Assembly (NCBI GenBank): GCA_039028735.1 | Contig: JBCCHQ010000001.1 | Location: forward strand, 4,585-68,584 | Source: Planctomycetota bacterium | GTDB taxonomy: Bacteria > Planctomycetota > UBA8108 > UBA1146 > JAJFFE01 | DNA length: 64,000 nt | Reading direction: 5' to 3' | Shown here: piece by piece, positions 13,266-44,091 of the stretch | Numbering within the stretch: the stretch's first letter is position 1 | How the letters are laid out: every line of letters starts with the position of its first letter | Program-made: the position numbers and the translations under genes | The notes under the pieces: model-generated | Database searches by the model: none | Told to the model about the DNA's origin: nothing | The model's input: only the letters and a program-made list of their open reading frames with translations

Positions 13266-16166
13266 CTAGAATCTCTCGCGCTGCACTTTGGTCTCCCAGG
13301 TCGGCACCATGGGCAGTTCTTCGGCGATCAGCGACAGGATGGCCATGGCCGTCGAGTACGATTCGGTACGCGGAAAGACTCGATCGTTCCAGCCGCCGTG
13401 CGGCTCGATGGTGCGCCAAAGTAGGTCGCGCATTCGCTCCCGATAGCGCGGTCGCTCCACTTCCGGGAGGTGCTCGACAGCGATCGCGGCGTAGGCGTGA
13501 CCATAGAAGAAATAGTAAGGCGCCACGCCATACGGCTTCTCGTGAGTGCCCTGCTGGCTCTTGCGCTTCAACAGTTCTTTCCAGTTGTTCTCGTCGAAGA
13601 AGCCATCGATGGCAGTACGCAGCCGTTCGACGCTACTACGGCCTGCGCGTAGCAGCACAAGTTCAGCGATTGCAGACCGGGCCGACGCACCGGCCATCGG
13701 CTCGTCGGGATTGCGCAACCGCCCGGCATACGCATAGGCCGCGCCCTCGCCACGCCCTGTTTCCAAGCGGTCGAGCGCCTTCTCGACCATCGCAGCATCG
13801 ACGTCATATCCAGCAGCCTCCGCGCGGAACAGCGCGATCAACGTCGAGCCGGTCATGAACGGGCTGAAGGTGCGTGCTGCATAGTTCCAACCACCGCCTC
13901 GCACTTGCCCCAGCTTCAGGCATTCGATCACGTGCGGAATTGCCGTGTCGACACGACCAAACAAAGTCGAGTCTCTCAGCAGCCCACTTTCGAGCGCACG
14001 CACAAAGAAGCTCAGAGCATAAGTGTGCCCCCAATAACGGACGTCGTAGTTGCGTTGTGGCTGCGCGGCCATCCCTGGATCTTCGGCGATCGCATCGAGC
14101 ATGAAAGCCGTCGCGCGCAACAGGGCCCGCCGGCGCGCCGCATCGAGACCGGGCGCCTCCAGCAACGCTTCTGCAACGATCGCCGTACCGCCGACACGGT
14201 AACCAACCGGGATGCGTCCGTCGGGACGTACTCGGTAGACGCCTTCGTACGGCCACTCGGCAGCGCCTTCCGAAGCTGTGCGAATCTTGCTCAAACGCTC
14301 GCGCTCTCGCTCCTGCCATCCCTCGAGCTTGGCATCGGGCAGCCGACCGATCGCTGGATCTGGTTTGTAACTCTCCTGGTTCTGCAAAAGGAGCTTGCAC
14401 GCCTGTTGCACCGCAGCGGCGACATTGGGAGTCTTCGCATCGTCCGTTTCGGCGTTCGCGTCGACCTTCGAAGCCGCCGCCGTCGACGCACTTTGACCAC
14501 GCACGTGGGCACCGACTGACGATGACGGGGCCGCCCCCGCCTTGCGGTACAACACGACATACGCCTCGGTGCGATGGAACGGCGCCCAGGTCTTGCCACG
14601 CCCTTCGTTCACGTACGGCGCCAGCGTATAGCCGACATGCAGGCGGCGGTCGTCACCGACCAGGGCCGAAGCATCGACGACCCATGGGCGCACGAGATCA
14701 CCCGGAGCCCAGCCCGCACGATCGTACTTCCACGTGCCCCCCTGGGGCCTGCACGGGTTCAGGTAGTTGTCCGTCTTCCAAAGGTTGTTCGTGAAGGTCG
14801 TCCCGTTGATCGTCAGCGTACGCTCGATCGGCATGAACTCGGCTGCGTTGTTGGTGTTGGGATGCATACCGTGTCCGGTGACCACCGATCGGACTTCGGC
14901 CGCTACCGTGTCCGCCCCCAGCTCTACAACGCGCGGGACATAGAAGTCGGACACGGGCTTGTCAGGGTTACCGATCTCAGGACGACCCGACCATAGGCGT
15001 ACCACGTCGTACGCCAGCCGTTTCGACTTCCCGGGGTAGAAGTCGAACGCTACCGTAACGATCCATCCTTCTCCCTGAGTGCCACAGGTCTGTTCGATGC
15101 GTCGCTGACCTTGCAGCAGTGACCGAAACGCCGTGACATCTGCCTTCCAAACGCCCCCTTTGTGATACGGCGTGATGTACCGGACAAGCTCATACTTCTC
15201 ATCACCGTCGAACACATTGATGTAGGCGGCCCGATCCCACGGATCGAAGCGGGTATCGGGCTTGTCGAGGCGCAGCGTCATGATGATGCGCGCGTAGTCG
15301 CTGTTGTCTTCGGGGAATTCGACGACAGACTCGTTCTTTGGATGGTCTTTGTCGTTGATCTTGCGATTGATTGCGACAATGGACAACGGGGCCGGCGGCG
15401 CCGCGGAAAAGCCGCTGAGGCGAGCGCGAAAGTCGTCGACGAATACGTCACCTGCTGTCTCAGAGTTGCGGGCACCAAACCCAGGTCGGCCGACGAACGC
15501 TGTCATTTCCGGAATGAAGTAGCCGTCGTACAACGCATCCCCGTCTATCGAGACATCGACGAGGGCGCCGCCTGTCACGAAGCGAATGCGCGCCTTGACA
15601 GCGTGTGGCTTCTCGTCGCGAAACTCCTTCGGTGTCGTCATCTTGTGAATCTCGGTGCCGTTCCAGTGCAGCGAAAGTTCGTGCTGCGGGCGATCGTAGG
15701 CATTGCCGGAGCCCCGGAACGGGTCACGATTCGGCGGGTTCGATGCATCGAAACCGATGCCGAACGCGCGCGCGACACTGGGCGCCTCCCACTGTTCCAC
15801 TGTGGGTGCCGCTCCGTCGCTACCGTACTCAGCCGTATCGAGCCAAACGAATCCAGCTCCCTCGGTGCCGGTATTCATCGACAGTGTCCACTCCAGCTCG
15901 ATCGTCTCGAAGTAAGCACTCGACGGGGCTGCGAAACCAACCGAAGCGTCCGACTTCCACCACGACGCCAGTAGATACAGCTGCCCGCGCTGCAGTTTCG
16001 CGCCGCCCTTGCGCTTCTTGGCTTCACCAGTGACGGTCGCGACGAACTGCGACGCGGCTTCCGGGTCGTCGAAGTTGCACCTGTAGTCGACTGCGTCCGC
16101 GGCCACGACCAGAGACTGGGTCGCAACACAGCAGAGAAGGCAGATCAGTAGGACGGGTCTGTTCAT
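13266..16166 (-). CDS. Secreted fusion protein: lectin-like N-terminal region + PNGase F-like (peptide-N4-glycosidase F) domain + C-terminal prenyltransferase/terpene-cyclase-like alpha/alpha-toroid repeats
   Basis: ATG start and a signal peptide. DRAAYINVFDG..YELVRYITPYHKGG...FRSLLQG...VAFDFY and NPCRPQGGTWKYDRAGWAPGDLVRPW match PNGase F core motifs (from memory of the Elizabethkingia enzyme). The C-terminal repeats GGWNYAARTF, GGWNDRVFP, RYWGHTYALSF resemble QW/prenyltransferase toroid repeats. Confidence 0.7.
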   Translation of the reverse strand: MNRPVLLICLLCCVATQSLVVAADAVDYRCNFDDPEAASQFVATVTGEAKKRKGGAKLQRGQLYLLASWWKSDASVGFAAPSSAYFETIELEWTLSMNTGTEGAGFVWLDTAEYGSDGAAPTVEQWEAPSVARAFGIGFDASNPPNRDPFRGSGNAYDRPQHELSLHWNGTEIHKMTTPKEFRDEKPHAVKARIRFVTGGALVDVSIDGDALYDGYFIPEMTAFVGRPGFGARNSETAGDVFVDDFRARLSGFSAAPPAPLSIVAINRKINDKDHPKNESVVEFPEDNSDYARIIMTLRLDKPDTRFDPWDRAAYINVFDGDEKYELVRYITPYHKGGVWKADVTAFRSLLQGQRRIEQTCGTQGEGWIVTVAFDFYPGKSKRLAYDVVRLWSGRPEIGNPDKPVSDFYVPRVVELGADTVAAEVRSVVTGHGMHPNTNNAAEFMPIERTLTINGTTFTNNLWKTDNYLNPCRPQGGTWKYDRAGWAPGDLVRPWVVDASALVGDDRRLHVGYTLAPYVNEGRGKTWAPFHRTEAYVVLYRKAGAAPSSSVGAHVRGQSASTAAASKVDANAETDDAKTPNVAAAVQQACKLLLQNQESYKPDPAIGRLPDAKLEGWQERERERLSKIRTASEGAAEWPYEGVYRVRPDGRIPVGYRVGGTAIVAEALLEAPGLDAARRRALLRATAFMLDAIAEDPGMAAQPQRNYDVRYWGHTYALSFFVRALESGLLRDSTLFGRVDTAIPHVIECLKLGQVRGGGWNYAARTFSPFMTGSTLIALFRAEAAGYDVDAAMVEKALDRLETGRGEGAAYAYAGRLRNPDEPMAGASARSAIAELVLLRAGRSSVERLRTAIDGFFDENNWKELLKRKSQQGTHEKPYGVAPYYFFYGHAYAAIAVEHLPEVERPRYRERMRDLLWRTIEPHGGWNDRVFPRTESYSTAMAILSLIAEELPMVPTWETKVQRERF

Positions 16167-32887: not shown

Positions 32888-34672
32888 CTACTCGGCCAGA
32901 TCGAAGATCACCTGCAGCCGCACGAAATCGACATCCGATACCGTGATGCGCATCGGTCCACCCTCCGTGAACGAGAAGCTGCGGCGACGCACGGTGACCG
33001 TGGCGGTTGCACCATCGATCTTGACGCGGCCGCCGATCTTGCGAAACGGCAGGAAGCCTGTGACGTTGAACTGGTCGACGGCGATCTCGAGTCCGCCGTG
33101 GCTGACACGCACGATCGTGGCGTCGTGCTTCTCGCCGATGTGTGGCTCCATTAGCTGGCAAACCTTGAGGTCATTGACGGCGCGTTCGACCATGTCAGCG
33201 ACGCTTGCCTGCAGTGTGCTCTGACTCGCTTGGGCGTTCAGGTCTCGGGTCAGTGCGCCTGCTTTCAGCTCTGCCTCGGCTTCTTCCGGCCTGGACTCGA
33301 TTGCGTAGAGCCAGCGGTGCACGACGAGATCGGGATAACGGCGAATCGGCGAAGTGAAGTGGAGGTAGGCCTCGCGTGCCAAGCCCCAATGCTGCGCAAC
33401 GTCTTCATGATCCTTGACCTGATAGTCGGCGCGTTCGACGAGGCCCATGATGCGCTGAATCAGCGCTTCTGAGTTCGGCCGACTGCGCACGAGACGGACC
33501 AGGTTGCCGATGTCGCGTCCCGTCAGGCGATCCTTCTTCGGCACCCTGACCTTGAACTTCTCCAGCATCTTGGCCAGTGCCGCGACCTCTTCCGGATCCT
33601 TCTCGGGATGAACACGGTAGATCGTGGGTAAGCCACGCGTGCGGAAGGTATCCCCGACGGCCTGATTGGCTGCGAGCGCAGTCTCTTCGATCAGGGTCTG
33701 CGAGAAATAGTTCGGTGCGACGACGATACCAACAACCTCGTGCTTCTCGTTGAAGACAAACTTCTTCTCCACCGATTGCATGCGCAGCGATCCCGCTTGA
33801 TCGCGCAACGATTGCTGCGTGCGGGTCCAGCGCCACAACAGGCGAAGTACTGGCTCGAGGAAACGGATCGCCTGCGTCTCTTCAGTGTCCTTGTCGTCGA
33901 GCAGCTCTTGCACGACTCGATACGTGCAGCGGTACTTGCTACGAATCACCGTCTTGGCGACGCGCGAATCAACTCGCTGCCCCTTCGGCGTGAACTCCAT
34001 GAACACTGAATGGGCCAAACGATCGCGATCTGGCACCAATGAGCAGAGGTGATTCGAGATCTTCTCCGGAAGCATTGGAATGACCTGATCCGCGACGTAA
34101 ACGCTGGTGCCGCGCTCCAGCGCTTCGTCGTCGAGTGCCGTTCCGGGTTGCACGTAGTGGCCAACATCGGCGATATGGACGCTCAACTCTACGTTGCCGT
34201 TGGGCAGCTCTCGCATCGAAATCGCATCGTCGTAGTCCTTCGCGTCGTCCCCGTCGATCGTGAAAATCAACTGGTCGCGAAGGTCCTCACGCCCCTCGAA
34301 ATCCGCCGGGTCTGGGTCATCGGGCAGCTGCGCCATCTCGCTCTTGACGTCATCGGGGAACACCGTGCGGACGCGAAAGGAGTGCAAGAGCTGCATCTCT
34401 TCCGACTCTTCGTCATGGTACGGCCAAGGACCGGTGTCCATCGGCCCAAAGGCAGGAGGGCGTCGTCCCGGCACAGCAGTAGTGGCGCCTACGTCACCCA
34501 GCTCCTCGGCGCTCAGATCGTCGCCGCTGCGCTTCAGCGTCCAACCAGACTTCTGCGGCGCCTCTTCTTCCACCTCGCCGCCCAAGGCCCGCTGCAGGTC
34601 TTGGAAGCTACCGAAGCCTTGGGATTTCTGCGAGTCGTCGCCGGACGACGAGCCTCGCTTCGATTTACTCAT
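32888..34672 (-). CDS. rnr: RNase II/R-family 3'-5' exoribonuclease (RNB domain + C-terminal S1)
   Basis: ATG 34672 (MSKSKRG...) is preferred over the track TTG 34795. The N-terminal region is acidic low-complexity. The RNB active-site motif is DGDDAKDYDDAISM. The C-terminal S1-like region is GEKHDATIVRVSHGGLEIAV. Confidence 0.85.
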   Translation of the reverse strand: MSKSKRGSSSGDDSQKSQGFGSFQDLQRALGGEVEEEAPQKSGWTLKRSGDDLSAEELGDVGATTAVPGRRPPAFGPMDTGPWPYHDEESEEMQLLHSFRVRTVFPDDVKSEMAQLPDDPDPADFEGREDLRDQLIFTIDGDDAKDYDDAISMRELPNGNVELSVHIADVGHYVQPGTALDDEALERGTSVYVADQVIPMLPEKISNHLCSLVPDRDRLAHSVFMEFTPKGQRVDSRVAKTVIRSKYRCTYRVVQELLDDKDTEETQAIRFLEPVLRLLWRWTRTQQSLRDQAGSLRMQSVEKKFVFNEKHEVVGIVVAPNYFSQTLIEETALAANQAVGDTFRTRGLPTIYRVHPEKDPEEVAALAKMLEKFKVRVPKKDRLTGRDIGNLVRLVRSRPNSEALIQRIMGLVERADYQVKDHEDVAQHWGLAREAYLHFTSPIRRYPDLVVHRWLYAIESRPEEAEAELKAGALTRDLNAQASQSTLQASVADMVERAVNDLKVCQLMEPHIGEKHDATIVRVSHGGLEIAVDQFNVTGFLPFRKIGGRVKIDGATATVTVRRRSFSFTEGGPMRITVSDVDFVRLQVIFDLAE

Positions 34673-34791
34673 ACTGCATCGCTCCAAAGTCTCGAAGAGG
34701 TGAGATCGACTGCTGGCCACGACGCGCCCGCGTCGATGGCTTGCCTTGAGATTAGTGCAGGTATTGTCGTGTGGGGTACGCCGGGGCGCAA

Positions 34792-35394
34792 TCACTTCCC
34801 CGTGGTCGCAGGGGGCTTCTCGACGTAGACCTTGAGCTTGGCGAGCAACCCCTCGTTGGCGCTGATGAAGTACTTCATCAGCGCGGAAAGCTCCTCGGAA
34901 TCGCTATATCCAATCCCATAGGACCTCACTCTTGTCCGAGTCTCCGAAAGAGCGTCGAAGACGATTGTGTTCGAGAGCTTGTCGGCATCCTTTTGCAGGA
35001 CCTCAGGCCAGTTCGAGCTGAGTTCGGCGCGCAACGTCAGCAACTCTTCGGGTACGTAGCCGAGAATATGCAGCGTGTTGGTTCCCGGCGCACCGATCTC
35101 ACCGTCGTCGTAGCGCGTCAGGATCTTGCCGTCCACACGCAAATCCACCTTCGCCTTCTTTGCCGCCCAGGCCTCCCAACCTTCTTGCGTCGAGTAGGCA
35201 TGCCAGACTCGAGCAACAGGAGCCTCCAGCACGGCTTCCTGGACCAACACCAACTCACTTGCAGCGGTCTTCAGGATCCGACTCGAGATTGCCTTCGGCG
35301 CTGCTTCTTTTGGGTCGGAGGCTGCAAAGGTATAGCCGGCGACAGCACAGCCGAGGGCCAACACGAAGACGATGACCTTGCCAGGGACAGCCAT
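34792..35394 (-). CDS. Secreted SRPBCC-fold (AHSA1/polyketide-cyclase-like) protein
   Basis: ATG and a signal peptide (MAVPGKVIVFVLALGCAVAG). The SRPBCC pattern is VLEAPVARVWHAYSTQEGWEAWA. Confidence 0.45.
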   Translation of the reverse strand: MAVPGKVIVFVLALGCAVAGYTFAASDPKEAAPKAISSRILKTAASELVLVQEAVLEAPVARVWHAYSTQEGWEAWAAKKAKVDLRVDGKILTRYDDGEIGAPGTNTLHILGYVPEELLTLRAELSSNWPEVLQKDADKLSNTIVFDALSETRTRVRSYGIGYSDSEELSALMKYFISANEGLLAKLKVYVEKPPATTGK

Positions 35395-35421: not shown

Positions 35422-36615
35422 CTAGAAGTGATAGCTCACGGCCAAGGAGATGAAATCGTCCTCGCTGAGCGCACGGGCCACGCTATCAGAATCTGTATTC
35501 AGAAAAAGCCTGGCGGTCAGCTCTACGAACCAGCTGTCGCCAACGCGGCGCTCGGCCTCGATGCTCACAAGCGTCTCCGGTGACTGTAGGTCCACGACCG
35601 CTCCGGCCAAGATCGCAGTATCCTGGGCGTCCTCGAGTGACCACCGGGCGCCGACAAAAACATCGTGGTCGAACGCAGTCCTCGGCGATCGCCGCGATCG
35701 GTCGTCGACCAATAGCTCAGACAGGATCCCCAGGTTGCCGTAGCCGTCAATGAACTGAAAGAACGTGTACTCGAATCCTGCGACTGCGGCGAAGAACCGG
35801 CGCTGGTCGTCGTCGCGCGAGATTGCCTCGAGCTTGCACAACCAAGCATCGCGAGTCCATTGTACGTCGACGCCGGTCTGATCCATCAGGGCGTAATGAG
35901 GACGTAGGACGGTGCCAGACGCCCGGACTTCGGGCACCAACGTCGGCTCGCGACTCGTCCCCGAGAAGTGCGACAGACCAACGTCGAAGTCACCGAGCGA
36001 ATGGGCCCAGCGCACGGCCCAATCTTGATGCCCTTCATCAGCGCTGGACTCGTAAGTAGGGTTTGAGCTGATCGGAAACGGGCCACGCAGACGCTCCTCG
36101 TTGAAGGTGCGCTCTCGAAAGTACGGAAGGTAGAAGAGATCCAAAGCTCCCCACTCTCCCTCGAGAGTCAGGTTGACCATCGGCTGCCCCAGCTTCGCTT
36201 CTTCATCGATGTCCTCGACACCGTCGGTCTGGTTGATGACGTCCACGAGATGGCGTGACTCTGTGACACCCCAGAAGACTTTGCCGACGCCGGCGAGCAA
36301 CGTGAAGCTGTCACCGAGATACAACCAATGCAACTCACGAAGGTCAGCGTGGGTGCGATCATCGTCATTGCTGTCGACGCGGACGAATGGAGTCGCAACG
36401 ACTCGCTGTAGACCATCCTGCCACTCGTAGACGATCTCCGGCTCGACAGCAACCGACACCGACAACGGGTCGTCGTCTTGATCGGCGAACCTTGGGTTTG
36501 CCGGGAACGCACGCAGCTCACCGGTGACAACACCTGAAAAGTCAAAGACGCCACCTTGCGGCGCCTGGCAGCCGACCATGACAAGGAGAGCGGTAGCCAA
36601 TAGCGCTCGCATCAA
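35422..36615 (-). CDS. Outer-membrane beta-barrel protein (DUF1302/porin-like), operon partner of the RND exporter
   Basis: It has a signal peptide. Amphipathic beta-strands alternate. The C terminus is ...ISLAVSYHF (terminal aromatic). Confidence 0.5.
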   Translation of the reverse strand: MMRALLATALLVMVGCQAPQGGVFDFSGVVTGELRAFPANPRFADQDDDPLSVSVAVEPEIVYEWQDGLQRVVATPFVRVDSNDDDRTHADLRELHWLYLGDSFTLLAGVGKVFWGVTESRHLVDVINQTDGVEDIDEEAKLGQPMVNLTLEGEWGALDLFYLPYFRERTFNEERLRGPFPISSNPTYESSADEGHQDWAVRWAHSLGDFDVGLSHFSGTSREPTLVPEVRASGTVLRPHYALMDQTGVDVQWTRDAWLCKLEAISRDDDQRRFFAAVAGFEYTFFQFIDGYGNLGILSELLVDDRSRRSPRTAFDHDVFVGARWSLEDAQDTAILAGAVVDLQSPETLVSIEAERRVGDSWFVELTARLFLNTDSDSVARALSEDDFISLAVSYHF

Positions 36616-37421
36616 CGCGCGCGCTTCAACTTGGCTGGAGTGAACGCGGAATCAGTCAGTTTCAGCCCTAGCTCCCACTCCTGAAACTGCAGAAGCGTCT
36701 GCTTGCCGTTTTGGTGATTGACCATGTTCATGCTGTCGGGGCGCCAATACTTCTCCGCGTACTTCTTGTAGCCTCCGTAGGTCAGCGTCTTCAGCAACGA
36801 ATCCTTGCGGTCATAGAACTCGATCTTCTGCACCCGATACTCAGCCTTGTCCCACCAGACGATTTGCTTCTTGTATCCAGAGTTCTTGTAGCGCGGAATT
36901 CTACGAACGACGAAGCAATCCTGGCCGTCGACCTTCTCCTCTTTCAGAAAGGCGTACTCGTACTTGCCAACCTCTTGGGCCAACAAATCCTCGAACGCGA
37001 ACTCGGAGCCTACGAACGGGCCCGACTTGTTCGCGGATGAAATTCGTTTCACCCGCTTCAGCGCCGGTAGAAACAGCCATTGATCATCTGGATCGAGCAC
37101 CTTCGTGTGTGACAACAGGGCCGTGCCTTTGATGTCGCGCGGGGAGTCGAAGATGACCAGCGACTTGTCCCCCAGCTTCTCGTCCGTAACTTCGAGGCTT
37201 TGCCGGCGCAGCTCGCGCGTCGTCTTGCTCCCATGGCGATTCTGCAAGACCATCTGCAGCTTACTCTTGCTGCCTTGCCAGCCAAGATCGCGGGCCTCTG
37301 CTTCCTTTGCGATCTCGAGGCCCTTCGATTGCGCGTCTGACTGCGCTTGCGCCATGAGCGGCGACGTGATCACCGCTATCGCCAACGCCGCGTAGGCGAC
37401 GGGGGTCATCGTCAGCTTCAT
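36612..37421 (-). CDS. LolA-like outer-membrane lipoprotein-sorting family protein (periplasmic partner of the RND exporter)
   Basis: It has a signal peptide. The conserved core is KSKLQMVLQNRHGSKTTREL...LLSHTKVLDPDDQWLFLPALKRVKRIS...VRRIPRYKNSGYKKQIVWWDKAEYRVQKIEFYD. It overlaps the upstream and downstream genes by 4 nt. Confidence 0.65.
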   Translation of the reverse strand: MKLTMTPVAYAALAIAVITSPLMAQAQSDAQSKGLEIAKEAEARDLGWQGSKSKLQMVLQNRHGSKTTRELRRQSLEVTDEKLGDKSLVIFDSPRDIKGTALLSHTKVLDPDDQWLFLPALKRVKRISSANKSGPFVGSEFAFEDLLAQEVGKYEYAFLKEEKVDGQDCFVVRRIPRYKNSGYKKQIVWWDKAEYRVQKIEFYDRKDSLLKTLTYGGYKKYAEKYWRPDSMNMVNHQNGKQTLLQFQEWELGLKLTDSAFTPAKLKRAR

Positions 37422-39793
37422 GAAACGGCTCCTTCCGGGGTTTCGCTTTCAGCACTGTGTGCGGTTGTTTCGACGACGTCACTGCCTGGCGCGGTCCGGT
37501 CTCCCTTGTCGAACGCTAGCAGCAGCGCTGGCAGCAACAGGAAGTCAGCAATGAATGCACAAGCAATCGTCAAAGACGTCAGCACACCCATATACGATGT
37601 AACTCGAAAAACACTCAATCCAAGCATCGCAAATCCGATCGACAACACAATCGTTGTCACGAAGATCGCACTCCCTGCATGGCGGAAAGCGTAGCGGAGT
37701 GAATCTGCCGCATCATCCCCGCGGCGACGGGCACGGTTGTACTTCGACAGGAAGTGCACAGTGTCGTCGACGATGATCCCCAGCGACAACGGACCGACGA
37801 CCGAGATCGCGAATCCAATCGTGCCCTCGACATAGCCCCAGACTCCGAAAGCCATCAATGCCGGCGTCAGGTTGGGCATCAAGCTGAGAAATCCAAGTCG
37901 GACATCGCGAAAGACCAGAAACAGTACGAGCGCAATCAGTGACAGTCCGAGAGTCCCGCCGATAACCATCGCCCACAAGTTGCGATGCGTGATGTTCGTA
38001 AACATCAAAGCCGTCCCGCTGGGACCGATGACTTCGAGGCCCTTCTCGCGCAGCCAGGTCTGAGAGAGCTCGCCGTCGACGGCCAAAACCGAAGTAGCCA
38101 CGTTGCCGTAAGTCACATCGACTCGAACGGATCTCTTGTCGATATCGATCTCGTCATTCAGGTCGAGCCCGTACGGTAGAGATAGCTCGTACAGCAATAG
38201 GTACTGCGAAGCGAGCTCCTGCGAATCGGGCAATCGATAGTACGACTCGTCGTCGCCATGCATGTTCTTGTTCAGACGCTTCATCGTGTCCGCGAAGCTC
38301 CGCACATGCGCCACCCCGGGGCGTGCTCGCAGCCATTCGGTGAACTCTTCGAGTTTGCCGAGGAACTCTGGATCACAGATCCCCTGCGACTCGCCAGAGT
38401 CGATCGAATAGCTGTTCACGAACAGCCCACCGATGGTGTCGACTGCAAAGTCAGCGGACCTCCGAAACTCCATGGACTCATCGAAGTATTGCCAGAACTT
38501 GTCTGAGATCGTCAGCCGTCCCATCCCGGCGATCAAGCCTACCGAGAACAGCGCCACGACGATCGCCAACGGGCGGCTGTGGGCAATCACCCATTCGCCC
38601 GTTGCGATCGCCCAGCGCGTCGACAGCGTCAAGCGCCCGCCACTCGAAGCGGGAAGAATCGCCAGGAAGGCTGGCAGCAACGTCATCGAGAAGGCCCAGG
38701 CGAACATGACGCCACCGGCAGTCACGTTGCCAAGCAGGCGGTATGGTGGCGACTCGCTGAGGTTAAGACTGAGGAAAGCGATCGCTGTTGTCACACTGGT
38801 CAAGAACACCGGCATCGCGTTGAGGCGCAACGACTCGATCAAAGCCTCTCGCCGAGAGTGACCGCTGCGCAGTTGATCGAGAAACGTGATCAAGATGTGA
38901 ATCGAGTCCGCAACAGCGAGGGTCAAAACGATCGTTGGCGCAGACGCGCTCGCGGGATCCAGCATCCAGCCCAGTAGCCCAACGACACCCAGAGTCACGA
39001 GCACCGAACAGAAGATCACCGCGAACATACCTACGGTGCTAACGATCGAGCGCAGCAAGATCGTCGTTGCGAGCACCAGCGCGGCGAACAACAGCGGCAT
39101 CACGAACGGCATGTCGCGCTCGGGGGCTTCGGCAAAGGCTGTGTTCGCTGGAATGACGCCGGAACTATGGAAGGTGTGATCCGGGTACTTCTCACGGTAC
39201 TCCGCAACCATACCCCGAATGTGCGTGATCGCCTGCTTCAGTTCGGTGCTGTCTTTGCCGGGAAGCACGACCCGCACGTTCACTGCAGTCGTGCGCCGGT
39301 CGTCTGTGATGAGGCGACGTGCGATGATCGGTTCGGACGCGGACACGCGGTCTGCGCGCGCAGCAATCGCTTCTGTAATGTCGCCGTCGGGAACTAGGTC
39401 CTCGACGATCAGGTCATCGCCCTGTGCCCAGGTGTGCTGAAAGTTCGACAGAGAGTCGACGCGTTGGGAGAACGGGATCTGCCAAGAGTCTTCGGTGAGG
39501 TCGCGGACCAATGACAGCGTGCGCTCCGTGAAGACATGCTCCCCCTCGGGGGGCTGCACCAGGAAGACCACGTTGTCGTTCGTCGTGTAGATGTGCTCGA
39601 TCGCGTCGAACGCCTTCAGGTCCGGATTCTCACCGGCGAAGAAGACGCGGTAGTTCTGCGCGAGCCGCACATCTTTGATGCCAACCGCCAACAAGGCGAC
39701 GACGCCGAGCGACGCGAAGAACACCAACCAGCGACGAGCAATCACCCATTCGGCGTAGCGGATGACCGCCGGCGCCTTCGTCTCTGACTCCAT
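37418..39793 (-). CDS. RND-superfamily exporter (MMPL/HpnN-like, 12 TM, two large periplasmic loops)
   Basis: ATG 39793 (MESETKAPAVIRY...) is preferred over the track TTG 39817. It has a duplicated 6-TM architecture with two periplasmic domains. It is about 790 aa. Confidence 0.8.
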   Translation of the reverse strand: MESETKAPAVIRYAEWVIARRWLVFFASLGVVALLAVGIKDVRLAQNYRVFFAGENPDLKAFDAIEHIYTTNDNVVFLVQPPEGEHVFTERTLSLVRDLTEDSWQIPFSQRVDSLSNFQHTWAQGDDLIVEDLVPDGDITEAIAARADRVSASEPIIARRLITDDRRTTAVNVRVVLPGKDSTELKQAITHIRGMVAEYREKYPDHTFHSSGVIPANTAFAEAPERDMPFVMPLLFAALVLATTILLRSIVSTVGMFAVIFCSVLVTLGVVGLLGWMLDPASASAPTIVLTLAVADSIHILITFLDQLRSGHSRREALIESLRLNAMPVFLTSVTTAIAFLSLNLSESPPYRLLGNVTAGGVMFAWAFSMTLLPAFLAILPASSGGRLTLSTRWAIATGEWVIAHSRPLAIVVALFSVGLIAGMGRLTISDKFWQYFDESMEFRRSADFAVDTIGGLFVNSYSIDSGESQGICDPEFLGKLEEFTEWLRARPGVAHVRSFADTMKRLNKNMHGDDESYYRLPDSQELASQYLLLYELSLPYGLDLNDEIDIDKRSVRVDVTYGNVATSVLAVDGELSQTWLREKGLEVIGPSGTALMFTNITHRNLWAMVIGGTLGLSLIALVLFLVFRDVRLGFLSLMPNLTPALMAFGVWGYVEGTIGFAISVVGPLSLGIIVDDTVHFLSKYNRARRRGDDAADSLRYAFRHAGSAIFVTTIVLSIGFAMLGLSVFRVTSYMGVLTSLTIACAFIADFLLLPALLLAFDKGDRTAPGSDVVETTAHSAESETPEGAVS

Positions 39794-39856
39794 AAGATCC
39801 TGTCCTTCCAAAGGCAACAGTCTCTATCACAGTTACAGTTTATGCACCAAAAAATG

Positions 39857-40297
39857 CTACTTCCGCTGCGCCATCCACTGCTCGAGGTCAGCTGCAGCGT
39901 CGACGCCGATGTCGGCAATCGTCGTCTGCGCGAGCACTGCTTCCAATGCTTCTTCGGCGTCACCAAGCACGCGGGTGATCCACTCCTTCACCGAGCCGGC
40001 GATCGGACACTTCTTCTGCGGGGCATGAAGCGCAAACAACGTGTCGTGCTCGGCCAGTCGAAACACGTCACGTAGAGAGATCGTTTGCGGATCAACGACG
40101 AGGCGCGCTCCCCCATGGACACCTGCCTGGGTCTGCACCCAGCCCTCGCCAACGAGCAGCGCGAGCATCCGGCGAATCACCGCCGGATTGGTATCGACCG
40201 ACTTGGCCAGCATCGCTGAGCTCAGATACTCCTGAGGCACCACCGACAGGCAGACCAGAATATGGGTCAGTACTGGGAATCGCGTGCATTGCGCCAC
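39857..40297 (-). CDS. Rrf2/BadM-family transcriptional regulator
   Basis: GTG 40297 with an AAGGAG RBS is preferred. The track ORF extends to 40423 by reading through the operator palindrome. The wHTH is LTHILVCLSVVPQEYLSSAMLAKSVDTNPAVIRRMLALLVGEGWV. Confidence 0.7.
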   Translation of the reverse strand: MAQCTRFPVLTHILVCLSVVPQEYLSSAMLAKSVDTNPAVIRRMLALLVGEGWVQTQAGVHGGARLVVDPQTISLRDVFRLAEHDTLFALHAPQKKCPIAGSVKEWITRVLGDAEEALEAVLAQTTIADIGVDAAADLEQWMAQRK

Positions 40298-40313
40298 GGG
40301 CGCTCTCCTTCCA

Positions 40314-40342
40314 CTAACCGTAACATACACAGTTACGGTTAG
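40314..40342. promoter_or_regulatory. Perfect 11-bp inverted repeat with a 7-bp spacer (CTAACCGTAAC-ATACACA-GTTACGGTTAG), candidate Rrf2 operator
   Basis: It sits 17-45 nt upstream of the Rrf2 GTG. A near-identical half-site CACAGTTACAGTT lies at 39827-39839 in the Rrf2-RND spacer. Confidence 0.5.
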
Positions 40343-40428
40343 CGGCGGCAAGGCAAATCCGGGAAAAGAGCTGTAAGACGCGGTGGCGATTGGCCTCGCG
40401 GTGCCCACGACTCTGCAGGTCATTCAGT

Positions 40429-41406
40429 TCAGGGGCAGGGGGTGTAAGCCGCGCAGTGGAGGGCGTCGACGGTTGGGTCCCAGCCGCACGTCGACGGCCC
40501 AACCAGCGGAATGGTCGGCGAGCCAAACAGCGCGTTCAGCAGCGCGATCACGTCGACGAGGTTCAACCCCCCATCGTCGTTGCCGTCGCAGGCATCGTCG
40601 CAATCGATCGGCGGCGGCGTCGTCTGCGGGAACAGATTGCCCAATAGGACGATCGCATCGCTGAGGCTAAAGCTCCCGTCCCCACTGCAATCGCCTCGCA
40701 CGAACTCAGGCGCCGTTGTGTCTATGATCAAGTCGTCGAACACAAACGTATTGTCAGTGCCTAGCTCGATGATCTCGACGCGCTTGATGCCAATGCCCGC
40801 AGTCACGCTGAGTGGTGCAAAGACCATCGTCGTCACCGTCGCGCTGGCCAATTCAAAATCATTCTCATCGTAGGCGCGCATCTCGAACGTCGCGGGGGAC
40901 TGCCCACCCGCCACCGAGATCGTCACACCGCTGACCGGCATGTCGAAGTGGATTTGTTGCGGGTCTGTCGGCAGATGCCCGTTCGAGAAGTTGGCCTGGC
41001 GGTTGAACGCAAGAAAATTGCTACCGCTTTGGGCTGGCACACCGAAGCTGGAACCATCATTGAGGATGCCGCCTCCGGTGCCGGTAGCGAAGCCGCTGAA
41101 GTGCACTCCCCAAGCCGAGTAGGTCTCGGTCAGGGCGGTCGTCGAGCTGAAGTTCACGGGTGCAACGATCGGCAGTCCGCTGGCATCGACATCGAAGTTG
41201 ATGACAACCGGTCCCGCGCCAGGAGCAACCGTCGCGAGGGCAATGGCCATCGCGAGAGTGACAACGGCGAGTGTCCCTGGTTGCAGAGGCCTGAATAATC
41301 GGAGCCAGCATGATGGGAGCCAGAATAATCGCAGACTGCGTACTGGGAGCCTGCGCAATGACTGCTTGCCAACTGCCCACTTCACGAAAGAACGGATCGG
41401 CGGCAT
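40429..41406 (-). CDS. Secreted protein of unknown function with a C-terminal Cys-containing dockerin-like module
   Basis: ATG 41406 has a strong GGAGAGGAG RBS. The signal/h-region is near LAVVTLAMAIALATVA, so the true start may be further downstream. The central beta-rich domain is unassigned. The tail is FVRGDCSGDGSFS...CDDACDGNDDGGLN...TPCP-stop. Confidence 0.6.
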   Translation of the reverse strand: MPPIRSFVKWAVGKQSLRRLPVRSLRLFWLPSCWLRLFRPLQPGTLAVVTLAMAIALATVAPGAGPVVINFDVDASGLPIVAPVNFSSTTALTETYSAWGVHFSGFATGTGGGILNDGSSFGVPAQSGSNFLAFNRQANFSNGHLPTDPQQIHFDMPVSGVTISVAGGQSPATFEMRAYDENDFELASATVTTMVFAPLSVTAGIGIKRVEIIELGTDNTFVFDDLIIDTTAPEFVRGDCSGDGSFSLSDAIVLLGNLFPQTTPPPIDCDDACDGNDDGGLNLVDVIALLNALFGSPTIPLVGPSTCGWDPTVDALHCAAYTPCP

Positions 41407-41534
41407 CGATCCTCTCCTCTCCCCACAACCACCGCTCCAGTATCGCGCGAACCCGCACGATCTCAAGCATGGCGTCGGGTCAGCGCTGACAAACCGGCAA
41501 CCCAGATTATTGTTAGTATTTGGGAGCGTGGGGT

Positions 41535-42752
41535 TTACGTCGAGCTACGACGAATACTGCCGAGCAGCGGTAAACAGACGAGAAGGAACGCTAGCGCGAA
41601 AATCGCGCCGAACGTCCCCAAGCCGGTCGGGTAGCCGTAAACGTCAATCAAGGCACCTAGTAACAGGCCGAGGGCCGCAAACAGCAGCCGCACCCCAAGG
41701 CTCGACAGCGAGTTCGCAGTCGCTCGAAGCTCTGCTGGCACGCGTTCGTTGAGGGCAGCCTTGATCACGACCTGCGTCAGTCCACGACCGATCTGGAACG
41801 TCGCGCCGAAGAGCAAGCCCCCGCCGATCGCGATCCAGATCGGGACATTGGTGAGCGCGCAGGCGGCCATCCCGAGATAGCCGACGATGGGAACGATCCC
41901 GATGATCAAGACGACTCGAGATGCCCCCAGCCTTTTCTCGATCCGATGCGCGTAGTGTCCCGTCACGGCGACGATGAGGTTGTACCCCGCCCAAGCGAAG
42001 CCAAAGAACCATAAACTTATCCCTAGCTGTTCCCAGTAGCCCTGAAACACCCAGACGGCGAGCAATGTCGACAACCCATAAGCGACCAGCGCTAGGAACG
42101 ACTGGCGCAAGATCGGCGTCGTACAAAAGATGACCCCAAAGATGCGCCCAAAGTTCTCGCGATGTTGCCACTGCGCTTTGGCGCGCGGCGGCTCGACCAA
42201 CGTCACAGCGACCAAGAGTGGCAACCAAGCGACGACAGCATTGAGGAATGCGGGCCACCAGAGTCCTGCCAAGACCAGCGCCCCGCCAATGGGAGCCGCA
42301 ACGGTCTCCCCCACTTGCGACCAGAACAGGCGACGACCGAGGATGCGCGTCGTTCGCTCTGGTTCACCAAGTGCAGCTTCCGTGTCGTAGAGCAGAGCAA
42401 CATCACTGCCCGAGAAAAAGCTCTGCCCGAGGGCTGCCAGAACTTCGAACACGACGAAGCCAGAAAACGACGATGACGTCGCCAGGACCGTGAAGGCGAG
42501 GCCGTGAAACACTCCAGCTACGATCAGAGAGTTGCGACGGCCGCAAAGGTCTGCGATGTATCCGGACGGAACTTCGAACACGACAATGCAGACCGCAAAG
42601 ATCGCCTGCAGCTGGAAGACTTGCTCCATGCTCAGACCGTACTGCCGCAAGAACGGCACGATCACCGGCATGATCAACAGGAACATCCACAGGCTGTTCA
42701 GGAACAGCACCTTCGAGATGTTTGCGCGCAGACGCTCGGGACCCACCGACAA
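41535..42752 (-). CDS. MFS transporter
   Basis: It has 12 predicted TM helices. The MFS loop motif is GYIADLCGRR. Confidence 0.8.
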   Translation of the reverse strand: MSVGPERLRANISKVLFLNSLWMFLLIMPVIVPFLRQYGLSMEQVFQLQAIFAVCIVVFEVPSGYIADLCGRRNSLIVAGVFHGLAFTVLATSSSFSGFVVFEVLAALGQSFFSGSDVALLYDTEAALGEPERTTRILGRRLFWSQVGETVAAPIGGALVLAGLWWPAFLNAVVAWLPLLVAVTLVEPPRAKAQWQHRENFGRIFGVIFCTTPILRQSFLALVAYGLSTLLAVWVFQGYWEQLGISLWFFGFAWAGYNLIVAVTGHYAHRIEKRLGASRVVLIIGIVPIVGYLGMAACALTNVPIWIAIGGGLLFGATFQIGRGLTQVVIKAALNERVPAELRATANSLSSLGVRLLFAALGLLLGALIDVYGYPTGLGTFGAIFALAFLLVCLPLLGSIRRSST

Positions 42753-42791
42753 CTCATGCCTCTCTCGAGTGCGGCCGGCAGCCGCGCCTGA

Positions 42792-43907
42792 CTAGCGGAT
42801 CTTCTCCAGTGTCTTGCCCAACTTGAAGCCGTCGGCGTAGCCAGGCTTGGTGACCCCATTGACGAGAAGCACTGATTTCATCGGTCCGTCGACATCCTTG
42901 ACGAAGAAGACAACGACCCGTCCCGCCTTGCCGGGCAAGCGATAGAGGTTCAACGTCTGCCCCTCGTGGTGAACCACTCGATCGGGCTCACCGACCGCAT
43001 CGCGTACCCATGCGAAACTCTCGAGGTAAGCAATCTCGCGAAAGAGCTGCAAGCGGCGGGCGCGAACGAAGACACTCATCATCGCTTCCCGGACCAGGTC
43101 TACTTCGCCCCGCATTTCTCGCTGTTGTTGCTCATCGACCTCGCCGGCTGTCTGCCACGACTGCGGCGGGCCTTCCATCCATTGCTTGCGTTTAGTGATC
43201 TTGGCCGGCCCATTCTTCGGAATCACCCACACTTGCTGCTCGAGCCCGAGCGCGCACGAGCCTGACATCGTCAACAACAGCTGCTTGGCCACGTAGCCTG
43301 TACCCTTGCCGTTCTTGACAGCCGTGGCGCGGAAGAAGTCAGGCTTTCCTTCGCTTGCCTTCACAGACCAGTGCTGTAGTTGATCGGCCGCATCTTGAAC
43401 TTGCGCGATGATCTCGCCAAAGATCTCCGGTGTCTTCACAACGATCCCGCCTGTAAGCACCCGCACCAGCTGCAACGCTGACAAGTCACTTCGGAGATCG
43501 AGCAATTGGTATGCATTGTCCGCACGCAACTCGTAGCCAATGCCAGCGGCGCGCTCGTCTGCGTTCGCCAATACCAAGTAGGGGAAGCGATCGCGCATAC
43601 CACGCGGCCCCCGAAAGAACTCACGATGCTCCTTCGGCGGCAGGTACTTGAAGTTCAGCGTGACCGGCGTCCAACGGCTCATCTTACGCCGATGCGGAAT
43701 CTTCGCCTGCCGCTTGTCGGTCGTAGCGGGCTTTGGTGTGTCGGGTTTCGCCGGTTTCGTGGTTGGCTTGCCCGGCGCCGGCGGCTGCGGCCGCGAGGTC
43801 GACTCTTGGCCGCGTGTTGGATCGCTTGCCAGCAAGAGCAACGGCAGTAGCAGAAGTAGCATCCAACGGCTGGATCGTGTGGTGGAAGTCATGGTGTCTC
43901 GTTTCAT
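42792..43907 (-). CDS. Hypothetical secreted protein with a Pro/Thr/Lys-rich linker
   Basis: Start ATG 43907 or 43892 (MKRDTMTSTTRSSRWMLLLLLPLLLLA signal). The PAPGKPTTKPAKPDTPKPATT linker follows. A ~300 aa domain with no recognisable motifs follows. Confidence 0.4.
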   Translation of the reverse strand: MKRDTMTSTTRSSRWMLLLLLPLLLLASDPTRGQESTSRPQPPAPGKPTTKPAKPDTPKPATTDKRQAKIPHRRKMSRWTPVTLNFKYLPPKEHREFFRGPRGMRDRFPYLVLANADERAAGIGYELRADNAYQLLDLRSDLSALQLVRVLTGGIVVKTPEIFGEIIAQVQDAADQLQHWSVKASEGKPDFFRATAVKNGKGTGYVAKQLLLTMSGSCALGLEQQVWVIPKNGPAKITKRKQWMEGPPQSWQTAGEVDEQQQREMRGEVDLVREAMMSVFVRARRLQLFREIAYLESFAWVRDAVGEPDRVVHHEGQTLNLYRLPGKAGRVVVFFVKDVDGPMKSVLLVNGVTKPGYADGFKLGKTLEKIR

Positions 43908-44091
43908 TCTACTGCGGCCATCTCCAAGCCCCAACGCTTCACGCTGCAAACAACCTTGGATCGCTTCGCCGGAGCGCGTCCTGACTTGAGCTCCTAGGGG
44001 TACGCCCATCGCTAGCCTACGACGCTGCGACTCGGCTATTCACTTCATCGCACTCCGTTGCCGCAGAAACAGCTCAGGGAGCGAGCCGCCG

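What the first reader, a model, noticed from the sequence alone, without database searches (positions are those of the whole stretch)
39794..40429. Rrf2 regulator heading an RND exporter / LolA-like / outer-membrane-barrel operon, with a perfect 11-bp inverted-repeat operator and a second half-site
On the minus strand the order is Rrf2 (40297..39857), a 63-bp spacer, RND/MMPL exporter (39793..37418), LolA-like periplasmic protein (37421..36612), then OM beta-barrel (36615..35422). The last three overlap by 4 nt, so they are one operon. Immediately upstream of the Rrf2 start lies CTAACCGTAAC-N7-GTTACGGTTAG (40314-40342), a perfect dyad of the size Rrf2 dimers bind. The track ORF 39857..40423 reads through it, giving LTVTVYVTV. 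A copy of the right half-site (CACAGTTACAGTT, 39827-39839) sits in the Rrf2-RND spacer. This predicts autoregulation plus control of a tripartite-like lipid or hydrophobic-compound export system whose substrate is unknown. RND+LolA-like+barrel triads are thought to export lipids or hopanoid-like cargo to the outer membrane.
Basis: seen in the sequence. Interest (0 to 1): 0.55.

Follow-up and report, generated by a model that had tools for sequence, protein, structure and literature searches.

The report
Thiol-sensor Rrf2 repressor guarding an export operon
A small repressor of the cysteine-based, quinone- and oxidant-sensing Rrf2 class sits in front of a three-gene envelope export operon in a planctomycete, with the family's standard DNA binding site before its own gene and a weaker copy before the pump gene. 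This is ordinary regulation attached to an unusual, uncharacterised cargo system.

Summary
A perfect 11-7-11 dyad (40314-40342) lies 17 nt upstream of a 146-aa Rrf2 gene. That gene is followed, on the same strand, by an MMPL/HAE3-type RND gene, a LolA_like (PF17131) gene and a 396-aa lipoprotein modelled as an 18-strand porin-like barrel. The longer ORF that reads through the dyad has no homolog support.

The dyad core, GTAAC-N7-GTTAC, is the operator shown by binding experiments for S. aureus HypR and S. pneumoniae SifR. I found it (up to 1 mismatch) next to 76 of 80 relatives of this Rrf2 from many phyla. It usually occurs twice: once about 40 nt before the regulator gene and once just after its stop codon. 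The window's sites lie at -39 and +461, which fits that layout.

The protein has one invariant cysteine and no Fe-S ligands, which places it among the SifR/YwnA-type monothiol sensors. Relatives usually control NmrA-like reductases; control of an RND export operon is rare. A sister lineage has the same operon without the regulator.

Binding, the inducing signal and the pump's substrate are all inferred. Verdict: new variant of a known kind, moderate interest.

The parts
40314..40342 (-). Operator site 1: perfect dyad CTAACCGTAAC-TGTGTAT-GTTACGGTTAG, core GTAAC-N7-GTTAC at 40320-40336. The core starts 39 nt before the Rrf2 start codon.
   Evidence: Best score in the whole window (22.1 bits) with a matrix trained only on sites from 80 other genomes. 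Same core as the HypR and SifR operators.
40346..40351 (-). Candidate -35 hexamer TTGCCG. A candidate -10, TATGTT (40327-40322), lies 18 nt downstream, inside the operator. Inferred only.
   Evidence: Read. The ortholog L001 has TTGCAA-16 nt-TATGTT in the same place. The tool's stricter consensus scan found no promoter.
40305..40310 (-). Ribosome-binding site AAGGAG, 7 nt before GTG 40297.
   Evidence: The ortholog has GGAGGGAGG before its ATG.
39857..40297 (-). Rrf2-family regulator, 146 aa. It has one invariant Cys (C97, in HAPQKKCPI) and no three-Cys Fe-S motif.
   Evidence: Pfam PF02082, E 3e-26. Best solved structure is B. subtilis YwnA 1xd7, E 5e-17, with the Cys aligned. C97 is invariant in alignment A3. 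Homolog lengths support this start.
39814..39842 (-). Operator site 2, degenerate: TAAACTGTAAC-TGTGATA-GAGACTGTTGC, core at 39820-39836. It lies in the 63-nt Rrf2-RND spacer, 461 nt after the Rrf2 start.
   Evidence: Matches 18 of 29 positions of site 1 in register; 50 of 20,000 shuffles reach this. After the two strands of site 1, it is the next-best matrix hit in the 64-kb window (7.7 bits; the next unrelated place scores 5.1). Conserved as GTAAC-TGTGACA-GATAC in the ortholog. The family median position for the second site is +471.
37418..39793 (-). RND-superfamily inner-membrane transporter, 791 aa, with two MMPL domains and a sterol-sensing-like region. HAE3 is the best-matching subfamily.
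   Evidence: Pfam MMPL, E 1.4e-31. TIGR00921 HAE3 scores 151.9 bits, below its 351.9 cut-off; HpnN scores 31 bits against 1100. Only weak PDB matches, to MmpL4 and MmpL5.
36612..37421 (-). Periplasmic LolA_like / TP_0789-like protein, 269 aa, with a Sec signal ending AQA. It overlaps the RND stop codon by 4 nt.
   Evidence: PF17131, E 1e-62. PDB 3bk5, E 8e-83. Sequence; junction.
35422..36615 (-). Outer-membrane barrel lipoprotein, 396-397 aa, with lipobox-like LVMVGC and a C-terminal Phe. The family has no Pfam model.
34792..35394 (-). Possible fifth gene: an AHSA1/SRPBCC (hydrophobic-ligand-binding fold) protein with a lipoprotein-type signal (LALGC), 27 nt after the barrel gene.
   Evidence: Pfam PF08327, E 1.7e-8. 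Sequence. Present in the 99%-identical contig L003 and absent in sister lineage L010. Its membership of the operon is not shown.

Best explanation
The 146-aa Rrf2 protein is a cluster-less, single-cysteine repressor of the SifR/YwnA/HypR type. As a dimer it most likely binds the GTAAC-N7-GTTAC dyad that overlaps the core promoter of its own gene. That would shut off transcription of rrf2 and, by read-through, of the downstream RND / LolA-like / porin-like barrel genes. The weaker second operator in the 63-nt spacer gives extra control at the pump gene, either over an internal promoter or as a roadblock.

When a thiol-reactive oxidant or electrophile (quinone-like) modifies Cys97, the repressor should leave the DNA and the export operon should be induced.

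Shown here: the sequence features, family membership, the cross-phylum link between this operator and this subfamily, the conserved two-site layout, the barrel fold, and conservation in one ortholog.

Inferred: actual binding, repression rather than activation, promoter positions, the inducing signal, co-transcription, and the pump's substrate. My best guess for the substrate is a hydrophobic toxic compound or an envelope lipid moved across the periplasm to or through the outer membrane.

The confidence of 0.7 is for the operator-repressor part. The thiol or electrophile signal alone I put at about 0.5, and the substrate guess lower.
For: - The dyad is unique and perfect.
- It lies outside the coding region.
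- Its core equals the HypR operator TAATTGTAACTA-N3-CAGTTACAATTA, which overlaps the -10 and was validated by EMSA and mutation (PMC6067689). It also equals the SifR operator TGTAA-N9-TTACA, validated by fluorescence anisotropy, where quinone adduction of the single conserved Cys releases the DNA (PMC9218516).
- 76 of 80 relatives from Chloroflexota, Acidobacteriota, Planctomycetota, Verrucomicrobiota, Burkholderia, Firmicutes and other groups carry the core with up to 1 mismatch near the gene. Of 139 such sites, 127 lie in two narrow zones, with medians at -42.5 and +471. The window's sites are at -39 and +461.
- A matrix trained only on those loci ranks the window's two sites above every other place in 64 kb.
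- Both sites and the Rrf2-to-MMPL order are conserved at 66% protein identity.
- C97 is invariant and aligns with the YwnA cysteine; there is no three-Cys motif.
- In 30 of 65 distinct family upstream sites a -10-like hexamer sits in the operator spacer. That implies promoter occlusion.
- No terminator-like site lies between rrf2 and the RND gene, and the three export genes overlap.
Against: - No experiment exists for this protein or locus.
- Site 2 is weak: 7.7 bits against a family median of 26.2, with two core mismatches.
- A core-only search allowing 2 mismatches is not enriched in the window (13 found, 9.4 expected).
- The consensus scan found no sigma-70-type promoter, and planctomycete promoters are poorly known.
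- The SifR-cluster motif HxxPNPxC is only partly kept (H-A-P-Q-K-K-C, two residues shorter).
- HypR's second sensing cysteine (Cys33) is absent.
- Relatives mostly regulate cytoplasmic reductases: 40 of 77 downstream genes are NmrA-like. An export operon is therefore an atypical target.
- The closest sister lineage runs the same operon without this regulator.
Confidence: 0.7

Rival explanations
1. The dyad acts as an RNA hairpin. It would be either a terminator for the upstream 345-aa gene or a 5'-UTR structure that masks the ribosome-binding site, and not a protein-binding DNA site.
For: If transcribed, the region folds at -30.4 kcal/mol (z = -5.1), and the flanks pair with part of the GGAAGGAG region. 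It lies 87 nt after the stop codon of the upstream gene.
Against: Any perfect palindrome folds this well. There is no U-tract after the stem, and no terminator-like site was called. Across phyla the base identity of GTAAC/GTTAC is conserved, not merely the pairing. The motif follows the Rrf2 gene whatever lies upstream. Two proteins of the subfamily bind this DNA in vitro.
Confidence: 0.05
2. The Rrf2 regulates only itself. The RND / LolA-like / barrel genes have an independent, unregulated promoter, and site 2 is a chance resemblance.
For: Site 2 is degenerate and core-only matches are at chance level. The sister lineage L010 expresses the same genes without any Rrf2, directly behind an MFS gene. 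The regulator therefore looks like a late insertion.
Against: Site 2 sits where 58 of 80 relatives have their second operator. After site 1 it is the best matrix hit in 64 kb. It is conserved in the 66% ortholog while the surrounding spacer diverges. Even without site 2, read-through from the regulated rrf2 promoter would couple the genes, since no terminator was found.
Confidence: 0.15
3. The regulator senses something other than thiol-reactive stress. For example, it could bind the pump's hydrophobic substrate directly, as TetR-type efflux regulators do, or respond through a Cys4-Cys97' disulfide specific to this lineage.
For: The target is a transporter, not a reductase. The HxxPNPxC motif is altered. 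Cys4 is shared only with the closest ortholog.
Against: The only invariant reactive residue is C97. It corresponds to the residue whose modification releases SifR from DNA, and to the HypR and SaiR cysteine needed for sensing. Neighbouring genes across the family are redox and quinone detoxification genes: NmrA, FMN_red, DoxX, thioredoxin, DsbA, DUF899.
Confidence: 0.2

Closest known systems
SifR (Streptococcus pneumoniae) and YwnA (Bacillus subtilis): monothiol Rrf2 quinone sensors (PMC9218516)
   Same: Rrf2 fold. A single conserved Cys followed by Pro at the start of the dimerisation helix (CPI here, CPV in YwnA). No Fe-S ligands. Operator TGTAA-N9-TTACA, against CGTAA-N9-TTACG here. YwnA is the best solved-structure match (E 5e-17).
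   Different: Only about 35% identity. The HxxPNPxC motif is shortened to HAPQKKC. The host is a planctomycete, whereas the class was described mainly in Firmicutes. The target is an envelope export operon, not catechol or quinone reductases and dioxygenases.
HypR (Staphylococcus aureus), hypochlorite- and disulfide-sensing Rrf2 repressor of hypR-merA (PMC6067689)
   Same: An autoregulated operon headed by the regulator. A 12-3-12 operator with the same GTAAC-N7-GTTAC core that overlaps the -10. The conserved Cys99 equivalent is present.
   Different: The NCBIfam HypR equivalog scores 42 bits against a cut-off of 180. Cys33, the disulfide partner, is absent. The target is not a flavin disulfide reductase.
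AmeABCD (Castellaniella defragrans) and the DUF1302 / DUF1329 / BNR / COG1033-RND clusters (PMC6394551; bioRxiv 10.1101/072470)
   Same: An HAE3-type RND protein encoded with a LolA-superfamily periplasmic protein and an outer-membrane barrel. These clusters are proposed to carry hydrophobic compounds or an envelope component across the periplasm.
   Different: The LolA-like protein here is PF17131, with only a partial DUF1329 match. The barrel is not DUF1302 (no Pfam hit) and is about 400 aa, not about 600. No BNR/Ycf48-like fourth protein is present. No Rrf2 is reported for those clusters.
TOL_3187 / TOL_3188 of Thalassolituus oleivorans (PMC6304351)
   Same: MMPL and LolA-like domains next to a domain-less predicted porin. 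Both proteins are strongly induced on the very hydrophobic substrate n-C28.
   Different: MMPL and LolA-like are fused into one protein there. I could not test homology of TOL_3188 to this barrel. The regulator is unknown.
HpnN hopanoid transporter, and ApeL/ApeM/ApeN of aryl-polyene clusters (PMC8253772)
   Same: RND-superfamily lipid exporters (HpnN is HAE3). In the aryl-polyene clusters they are paired with LolA/LolB-like proteins to place a lipid in the outer membrane.
   Different: The HpnN equivalog test fails (31 bits against 1100). No hopanoid or polyene biosynthesis genes lie nearby. The partner here is a porin-like barrel, not a LolB-like protein.

Membership tests
Rrf2 family (PF02082) | Winged-helix plus dimerisation-helix domain that scores above Pfam's gathering threshold | tested here: met
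   92.4 bits against a cut-off of 30, covering profile positions 4-129 of 132.
Fe-S cluster Rrf2 regulators (IscR, NsrR, RirA) | Three conserved cluster-ligating cysteines in the region around residues 90-110 | tested here: not met
   Only one Cys (C97) lies in that region and only it is conserved. The RirA, NsrR and SUF-regulator equivalogs score 21-36 bits against cut-offs of 110-193.
Monothiol Rrf2 sensors (SifR/YwnA class) | A single conserved Cys at the N-cap of the dimerisation helix, followed by Pro | tested here: met
   C97-P98-I99. C97 is invariant in 10 homologs and aligns with the YwnA cysteine in 1xd7. The feature is described in PMC9218516.
Monothiol Rrf2 sensors (SifR/YwnA class) | HxxPNPxC signature of SSN cluster 6 | tested here: inconclusive
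   The window has H91-A-P93-Q-K-K-C97. His, one Pro and Cys are kept, but the stretch is two residues shorter.
Monothiol Rrf2 sensors (SifR/YwnA class) | Operator TGTAA-N9-TTACA near regulated genes | tested here: met
   CGTAA-N9-TTACG at 40319-40337; the inner GTAA-N9-TTAC is identical. The outer position is T in 75% and C in 23% of family sites.
Monothiol Rrf2 sensors (SifR/YwnA class) | Quinone or electrophile adduction of the Cys releases the DNA | not testable with these tools
   Needs purified protein.
HypR (NCBIfam NF041852 equivalog) | Score above the equivalog cut-off, and the Cys33/Cys99 pair | tested here: not met
   42.2 bits against 180. There is no Cys near residue 33.
HAE3 family of RND transporters (TIGR00921) | Score above the subfamily cut-off | tested here: inconclusive
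   HAE3 is the best-scoring subfamily (151.9 bits, E 1.8e-44) but falls below the 351.9 cut-off. Two MMPL domains score above Pfam's threshold.
HpnN hopanoid transporter (NF052374) | Score above the equivalog cut-off | tested here: not met
   31.1 bits against 1100.
LolA_like / TP_0789-like (PF17131) | Full-length domain match | tested here: met
   211 bits against 30, covering profile positions 3-184 of 184. PDB 3bk5, E 8e-83.
DUF1302 / DUF1329 / BNR / RND four-gene cluster | A DUF1302 outer-membrane protein and a BNR/Ycf48-like periplasmic protein encoded alongside | tested here: not met
   The barrel has no Pfam hit at E up to 0.01. None of the nine neighbouring proteins scanned is BNR-like.
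Outer-membrane 18-strand porin-like barrels (fold level) | Closed beta-barrel that superposes on solved porins | tested here: met

The most novel reading that the evidence does not exclude
The very widespread, unannotated triad of an HAE3-type RND protein, a PF17131 LolA-like protein and a roughly 400-aa porin-like lipoprotein is a stress-inducible trans-envelope system. It would expel hydrophobic electrophiles such as quinones, or remodel the outer membrane against them. The monothiol Rrf2 wired to it here, and placed next to MMPL and LolA-like genes in a Latescibacterota genome, would be the first regulatory clue to its function.
Probability: 0.25. Interest if true: 0.6.

Novelty: new variant of a known kind. 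Interest (0 to 1): 0.4.

Why it matters
The regulator and its operator are textbook for a class that has been characterised by experiment in only a few Firmicutes. This work shows three things about that class.
- The same operator and the same two-site layout recur across at least eight phyla.
- In about half of the distinct upstream sites surveyed (30 of 65), the -10 element sits inside the operator spacer.
- In this planctomycete the class has been recruited to an envelope export machine instead of a cytoplasmic reductase.

The export triad belongs to a family with thousands of members and no Pfam model for its barrel. Only indirect data exist for related systems (induction on long-chain alkanes, monoterpene tolerance). 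A defined repressor and operator give a practical handle. Finding what releases the repressor would show when the cell wants this pump, and that narrows down the substrate.

Tried and rejected
- Scanning the reference genomes with the single Rrf2 protein found no relative. An alignment was needed.
- A metagenome scan for closer orthologs returned only six distant relatives at 31-40% identity. The Rrf2-MMPL orthologous group therefore rests on the window MAG, one 99%-identical contig (L003) and one 66% ortholog (L001 = L002).
- The consensus promoter and terminator scans gave nothing useful.
- The RNA fold of the Rrf2-RND spacer is not unusual (z = -1.2).
- GC content shows no island around the inserted genes.
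- A tRNA-like stretch upstream in L001 was not confirmed by ARAGORN.
- The Latescibacterota locus L045 has MMPL and LolA-like genes after the Rrf2 but no barrel; a 102-aa ORF follows instead.
- The third-best matrix hit (14359-14391) lies inside a 966-aa ORF and is treated as chance.
- One literature search was badly framed and returned irrelevant papers.
- Searches failed because of a coordinate error.
- I considered HpnN, DUF1302 and HypR membership and rejected all three on score cut-offs.
Full report
**1. Observation**

On the minus strand the sequence reads TTGCCG-CCG-CTAACCGTAAC-TGTGTAT-GTTACGGTTAG-TGG-AAGGAG-AGCGCCC-GTG. The 11-7-11 dyad (40314-40342) is perfect. It is the only match in 64 kb even when 3 mismatches are allowed, and 100 shuffles produced none. 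It extends to 14-nt arms at 93% complementarity.

The ORF table and Pfam confirm the gene order:
- Rrf2, 39857-40297, PF02082, E 3e-26.
- A 63-nt spacer.
- An MMPL-type RND protein, 37418-39793.
- A LolA_like protein, 36612-37421, PF17131, E 1e-62.
- A 396/397-aa protein with no Pfam or NCBIfam match, 35422-36612/36615.

The RND/LolA-like junction is ATGA. The LolA-like/barrel junction is TTGATG. The three export genes are therefore translationally coupled.

**2. Where the regulator gene starts**

I searched with the 188-aa version. All ten homologs are 140-151 aa and cover only the last 146 residues. They include a 99%-identical NCBI MAG protein annotated at 146 aa. GTG 40297 has an AAGGAG 7 nt upstream. 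The 66%-identical ortholog starts at the equivalent ATG behind GGAGGGAGG. The dyad is upstream of the coding region.

**3. What kind of Rrf2 this is**

- The best solved-structure match is B. subtilis YwnA (1xd7, E 5e-17).
- One cysteine, C97 in ...HAPQKKCPIAG..., is invariant among homologs. C4 and C17 are not.
- The three-Cys motif of IscR, NsrR and RirA is absent, and those equivalog models score far below their cut-offs.
- The protein therefore belongs to the cluster-less, single-cysteine branch. That branch was described for S. pneumoniae SifR and B. subtilis YwnA. In SifR, quinone adduction of the conserved Cys releases the repressor from DNA (PMC9218516).
- S. aureus HypR is a more distant relative. 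It uses the equivalent Cys99 together with Cys33 to form an intersubunit disulfide (PMC6067689).
- The window protein has no Cys33 equivalent. It keeps the HxxPNPxC signature only in a shortened form.

**4. The dyad is this subfamily's operator**

The HypR operator is TAATTGTAACTA-N3-CAGTTACAATTA. It overlaps the -10 and is validated by EMSA and by mutation. The SifR operator is TGTAA-N9-TTACA, validated by fluorescence anisotropy on several targets. Both reduce to GTAAC-N7-GTTAC, which is the core of the window dyad.

I then tested whether the motif travels with the protein.
- In the metagenome contigs that carry homologs at 39-99% identity (L001-L006), the exact core occurs once per locus. 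It is upstream of the Rrf2 gene in L001-L003, and between the Rrf2 gene and the next gene in L004-L006. It is absent from loci that lack such an Rrf2.
- An alignment-based scan of reference genomes returned 80 loci at 36-45% identity. They come from Chloroflexota, Acidobacteriota, Planctomycetota, Verrucomicrobiota, Gemmatimonadota, Myxococcota, Burkholderia/Paraburkholderia, Firmicutes and other groups.
- 76 of the 80 have the core, with up to 1 mismatch, within -250 to +700 of the Rrf2 start.
- 127 of all 139 such sites in 746 kb fall in two narrow zones. One is -118 to -19 (median -42.5; 68 loci). The other is +426 to +582 (median +471; 58 loci), just past the Rrf2 stop codon. Fifty loci have both.

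**5. The second site**

The window's sites lie at -39 and +461, which is this layout. Taken in register, it matches 18 of 29 positions of the whole operator as GTAAC-TGTGATA-GAGAC. Only 50 of 20,000 shuffles of the spacer reach that score.

I trained a position matrix only on the 123 distinct sites from the other genomes. Scanned over the 64-kb window, it ranks site 1 first (22.1 bits). Site 2 is next after the opposite strand of site 1 (7.7 bits). The best unrelated place scores 5.1 bits and lies inside a 966-aa ORF.

The 66% ortholog keeps the site as GTAAC-TGTGACA-GATAC while the rest of the spacer diverges, and the gene after it is the MMPL ortholog at 64% identity. Site 2 is therefore a weak but real-looking second operator. 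A search with the core alone and 2 mismatches is not enriched in the window (13 found, 9.4 expected). Its position and its conservation carry the argument.

**6. How it probably works**

In 30 of 65 distinct family upstream sites, a hexamer matching TATAAT at 5 or more of 6 positions occupies the operator spacer. An example is TTGACA-16 nt-TATATT in L045. Only 3 of 58 second sites show this. A bound dimer would thus cover the -10, which is classic repression by occlusion and is what was proposed for HypR.

In the window the spacer is TGTGTAT. The best candidate is TTGCCG-18 nt-TATGTT, which overlaps the right arm. The ortholog has TTGCAA-16 nt-TATGTT. This is inference: the stricter consensus scan calls no promoter.

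No terminator-like site separates rrf2 from the RND gene, so read-through is likely. Site 2 may add control over an internal promoter or act as a roadblock.

The signal is inferred from the invariant Cys and from what relatives regulate. Of 77 downstream neighbours:
- 40 are NmrA-like NAD(P)H-binding reductases, the YwnA-YwnB arrangement.
- The others include DoxX, cupins, FMN reductases, flavodoxins, thioredoxins, DsbA and DUF899.

That is a quinone, electrophile and thiol-stress repertoire.

**7. The cargo genes**

- The RND protein matches HAE3 best but falls below its cut-off, and it is clearly not HpnN.
- The LolA-like protein has a Sec signal and is very close to the structural-genomics structure 3bk5 (E 8e-83).
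- The fourth protein has a lipoprotein-type signal and a C-terminal Phe.
- The barrel's family has more than 7,895 members without a Pfam model; those that carry a source name are called 'hypothetical'.

**8. Is the regulator-pump link general?**

No.
- A sister planctomycete lineage (L010) has these identities to the window: MMPL 81%, LolA-like 77%, barrel 73%, MFS 72%, RNB 85%. Its order is unknown-MFS-MMPL-LolA-like-barrel-RNB, with 30 nt between MFS and MMPL and no Rrf2.
- Relative to L010, the window has gained (or L010 has lost) three genes: the 345-aa secreted protein, the Rrf2, and an SRPBCC lipoprotein after the barrel.
- Pelagibius has the triad with no Rrf2.
- Among the 80 Rrf2 relatives, only a Latescibacterota genome (L045) has MMPL (45% identity) and LolA-like (52%) genes downstream. 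They lie behind a 68-aa ORF and a DUF899 thioredoxin-fold gene, and no barrel follows.

The wiring is rare, but it has arisen at least twice.

**9. What is known about such triads**

- AmeABCD of C. defragrans consists of an HAE3 RND protein, DUF1302, DUF1329 and a BNR-like protein. It contributes to monoterpene tolerance and dye efflux (PMC6394551).
- The same four-gene cluster is cofit in several Proteobacteria and was proposed to export a cell-wall component (bioRxiv 10.1101/072470).
- In T. oleivorans, a fused MMPL-LolA-like protein and the adjacent domain-less predicted porin are induced on n-C28 (PMC6304351).
- Aryl-polyene clusters pair an RND protein with LolA/LolB-like proteins (PMC8253772).

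None of these is the PF17131-plus-400-aa-barrel triad found here, and none is reported with an Rrf2.

**10. Verdict**

It is sharpened in three ways: the regulator is a monothiol SifR/YwnA-type sensor, the dyad is that class's known operator, and the 'half-site' is the class's usual second operator.

This is ordinary regulatory logic. The unusual part is the output, an uncharacterised and very widespread envelope export triad. I rate it a new variant of a known kind, with moderate interest. Binding, signal, transcript structure and substrate remain to be shown.

Noticed in passing
window 34792-35394 (-): An AHSA1/SRPBCC-fold protein with a lipoprotein-type signal (..LALGC) lies 27 nt after the barrel gene. 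It is present in the 99%-identical contig but absent from the sister lineage L010. An exported hydrophobic-ligand-binding lipoprotein next to the triad could be an accessory cargo carrier.
   Followed up: partly
window 40429-41466 (-): A 345-aa protein with an N-terminal hydrophobic segment and dockerin/EF-hand-like C-terminal repeats (DGSFSLSDAIVLL..., NDDGGLNLVDVIALL...) lies directly upstream of the Rrf2 gene. Like the Rrf2, it is missing from L010, where MFS abuts MMPL. The two genes may have been inserted together.
   Followed up: partly
window 41535-44009 (-); L010 1331-3733; L013 1915-3189: An MFS_1 transporter accompanies the triad in both the window and L010 (72% identity). A 375-405-aa unknown protein does too (38% identity). 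Pelagibius also has an MFS_1 gene next to its triad, on the opposite strand. The MFS may be a functional partner.
   Followed up: partly
window 32888-34795 (-): The longest ORF of the RNase II/R-like (RNB) gene overlaps the SRPBCC stop codon as GTGA. The L010 ortholog is 596 aa against 635 aa here, so the true start is probably further downstream. RNB follows the triad in both lineages.
   Followed up: no
L016-L095 (80 reference-genome loci): Across at least eight phyla, this Rrf2 subfamily shows a fixed two-operator layout, with one site about 40 nt before the gene and one just after its stop codon. In 30 of 65 distinct upstream sites a TATAAT-like -10 hexamer sits inside the 7-nt operator spacer. 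The SifR paper describes its cluster mainly from Firmicutes.
   Followed up: yes
L045 4977-10417 (Ca. Latescibacterota MAG OZ252100.1): The gene order is Rrf2, 68-aa ORF, DUF899 (thioredoxin fold), MMPL, LolA-like, 102-aa ORF. Exact operators lie at -34 and +538, and the promoter reads TTGACA-16 nt-TATATT through the first operator. This is an independent case of the subfamily sitting next to MMPL and LolA-like genes.
   Followed up: partly
window 35422-36612 (-) and homologs P0011-P0130: The barrel family has more than 7,895 members at E up to 1e-3 in Proteobacteria, Myxococcota, Dadabacteria, Methylomirabilales and Planctomycetota. It has about 59 invariant columns, including a GKVFWGVTESRHLVD block, and no Pfam or NCBIfam model.
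   Followed up: partly
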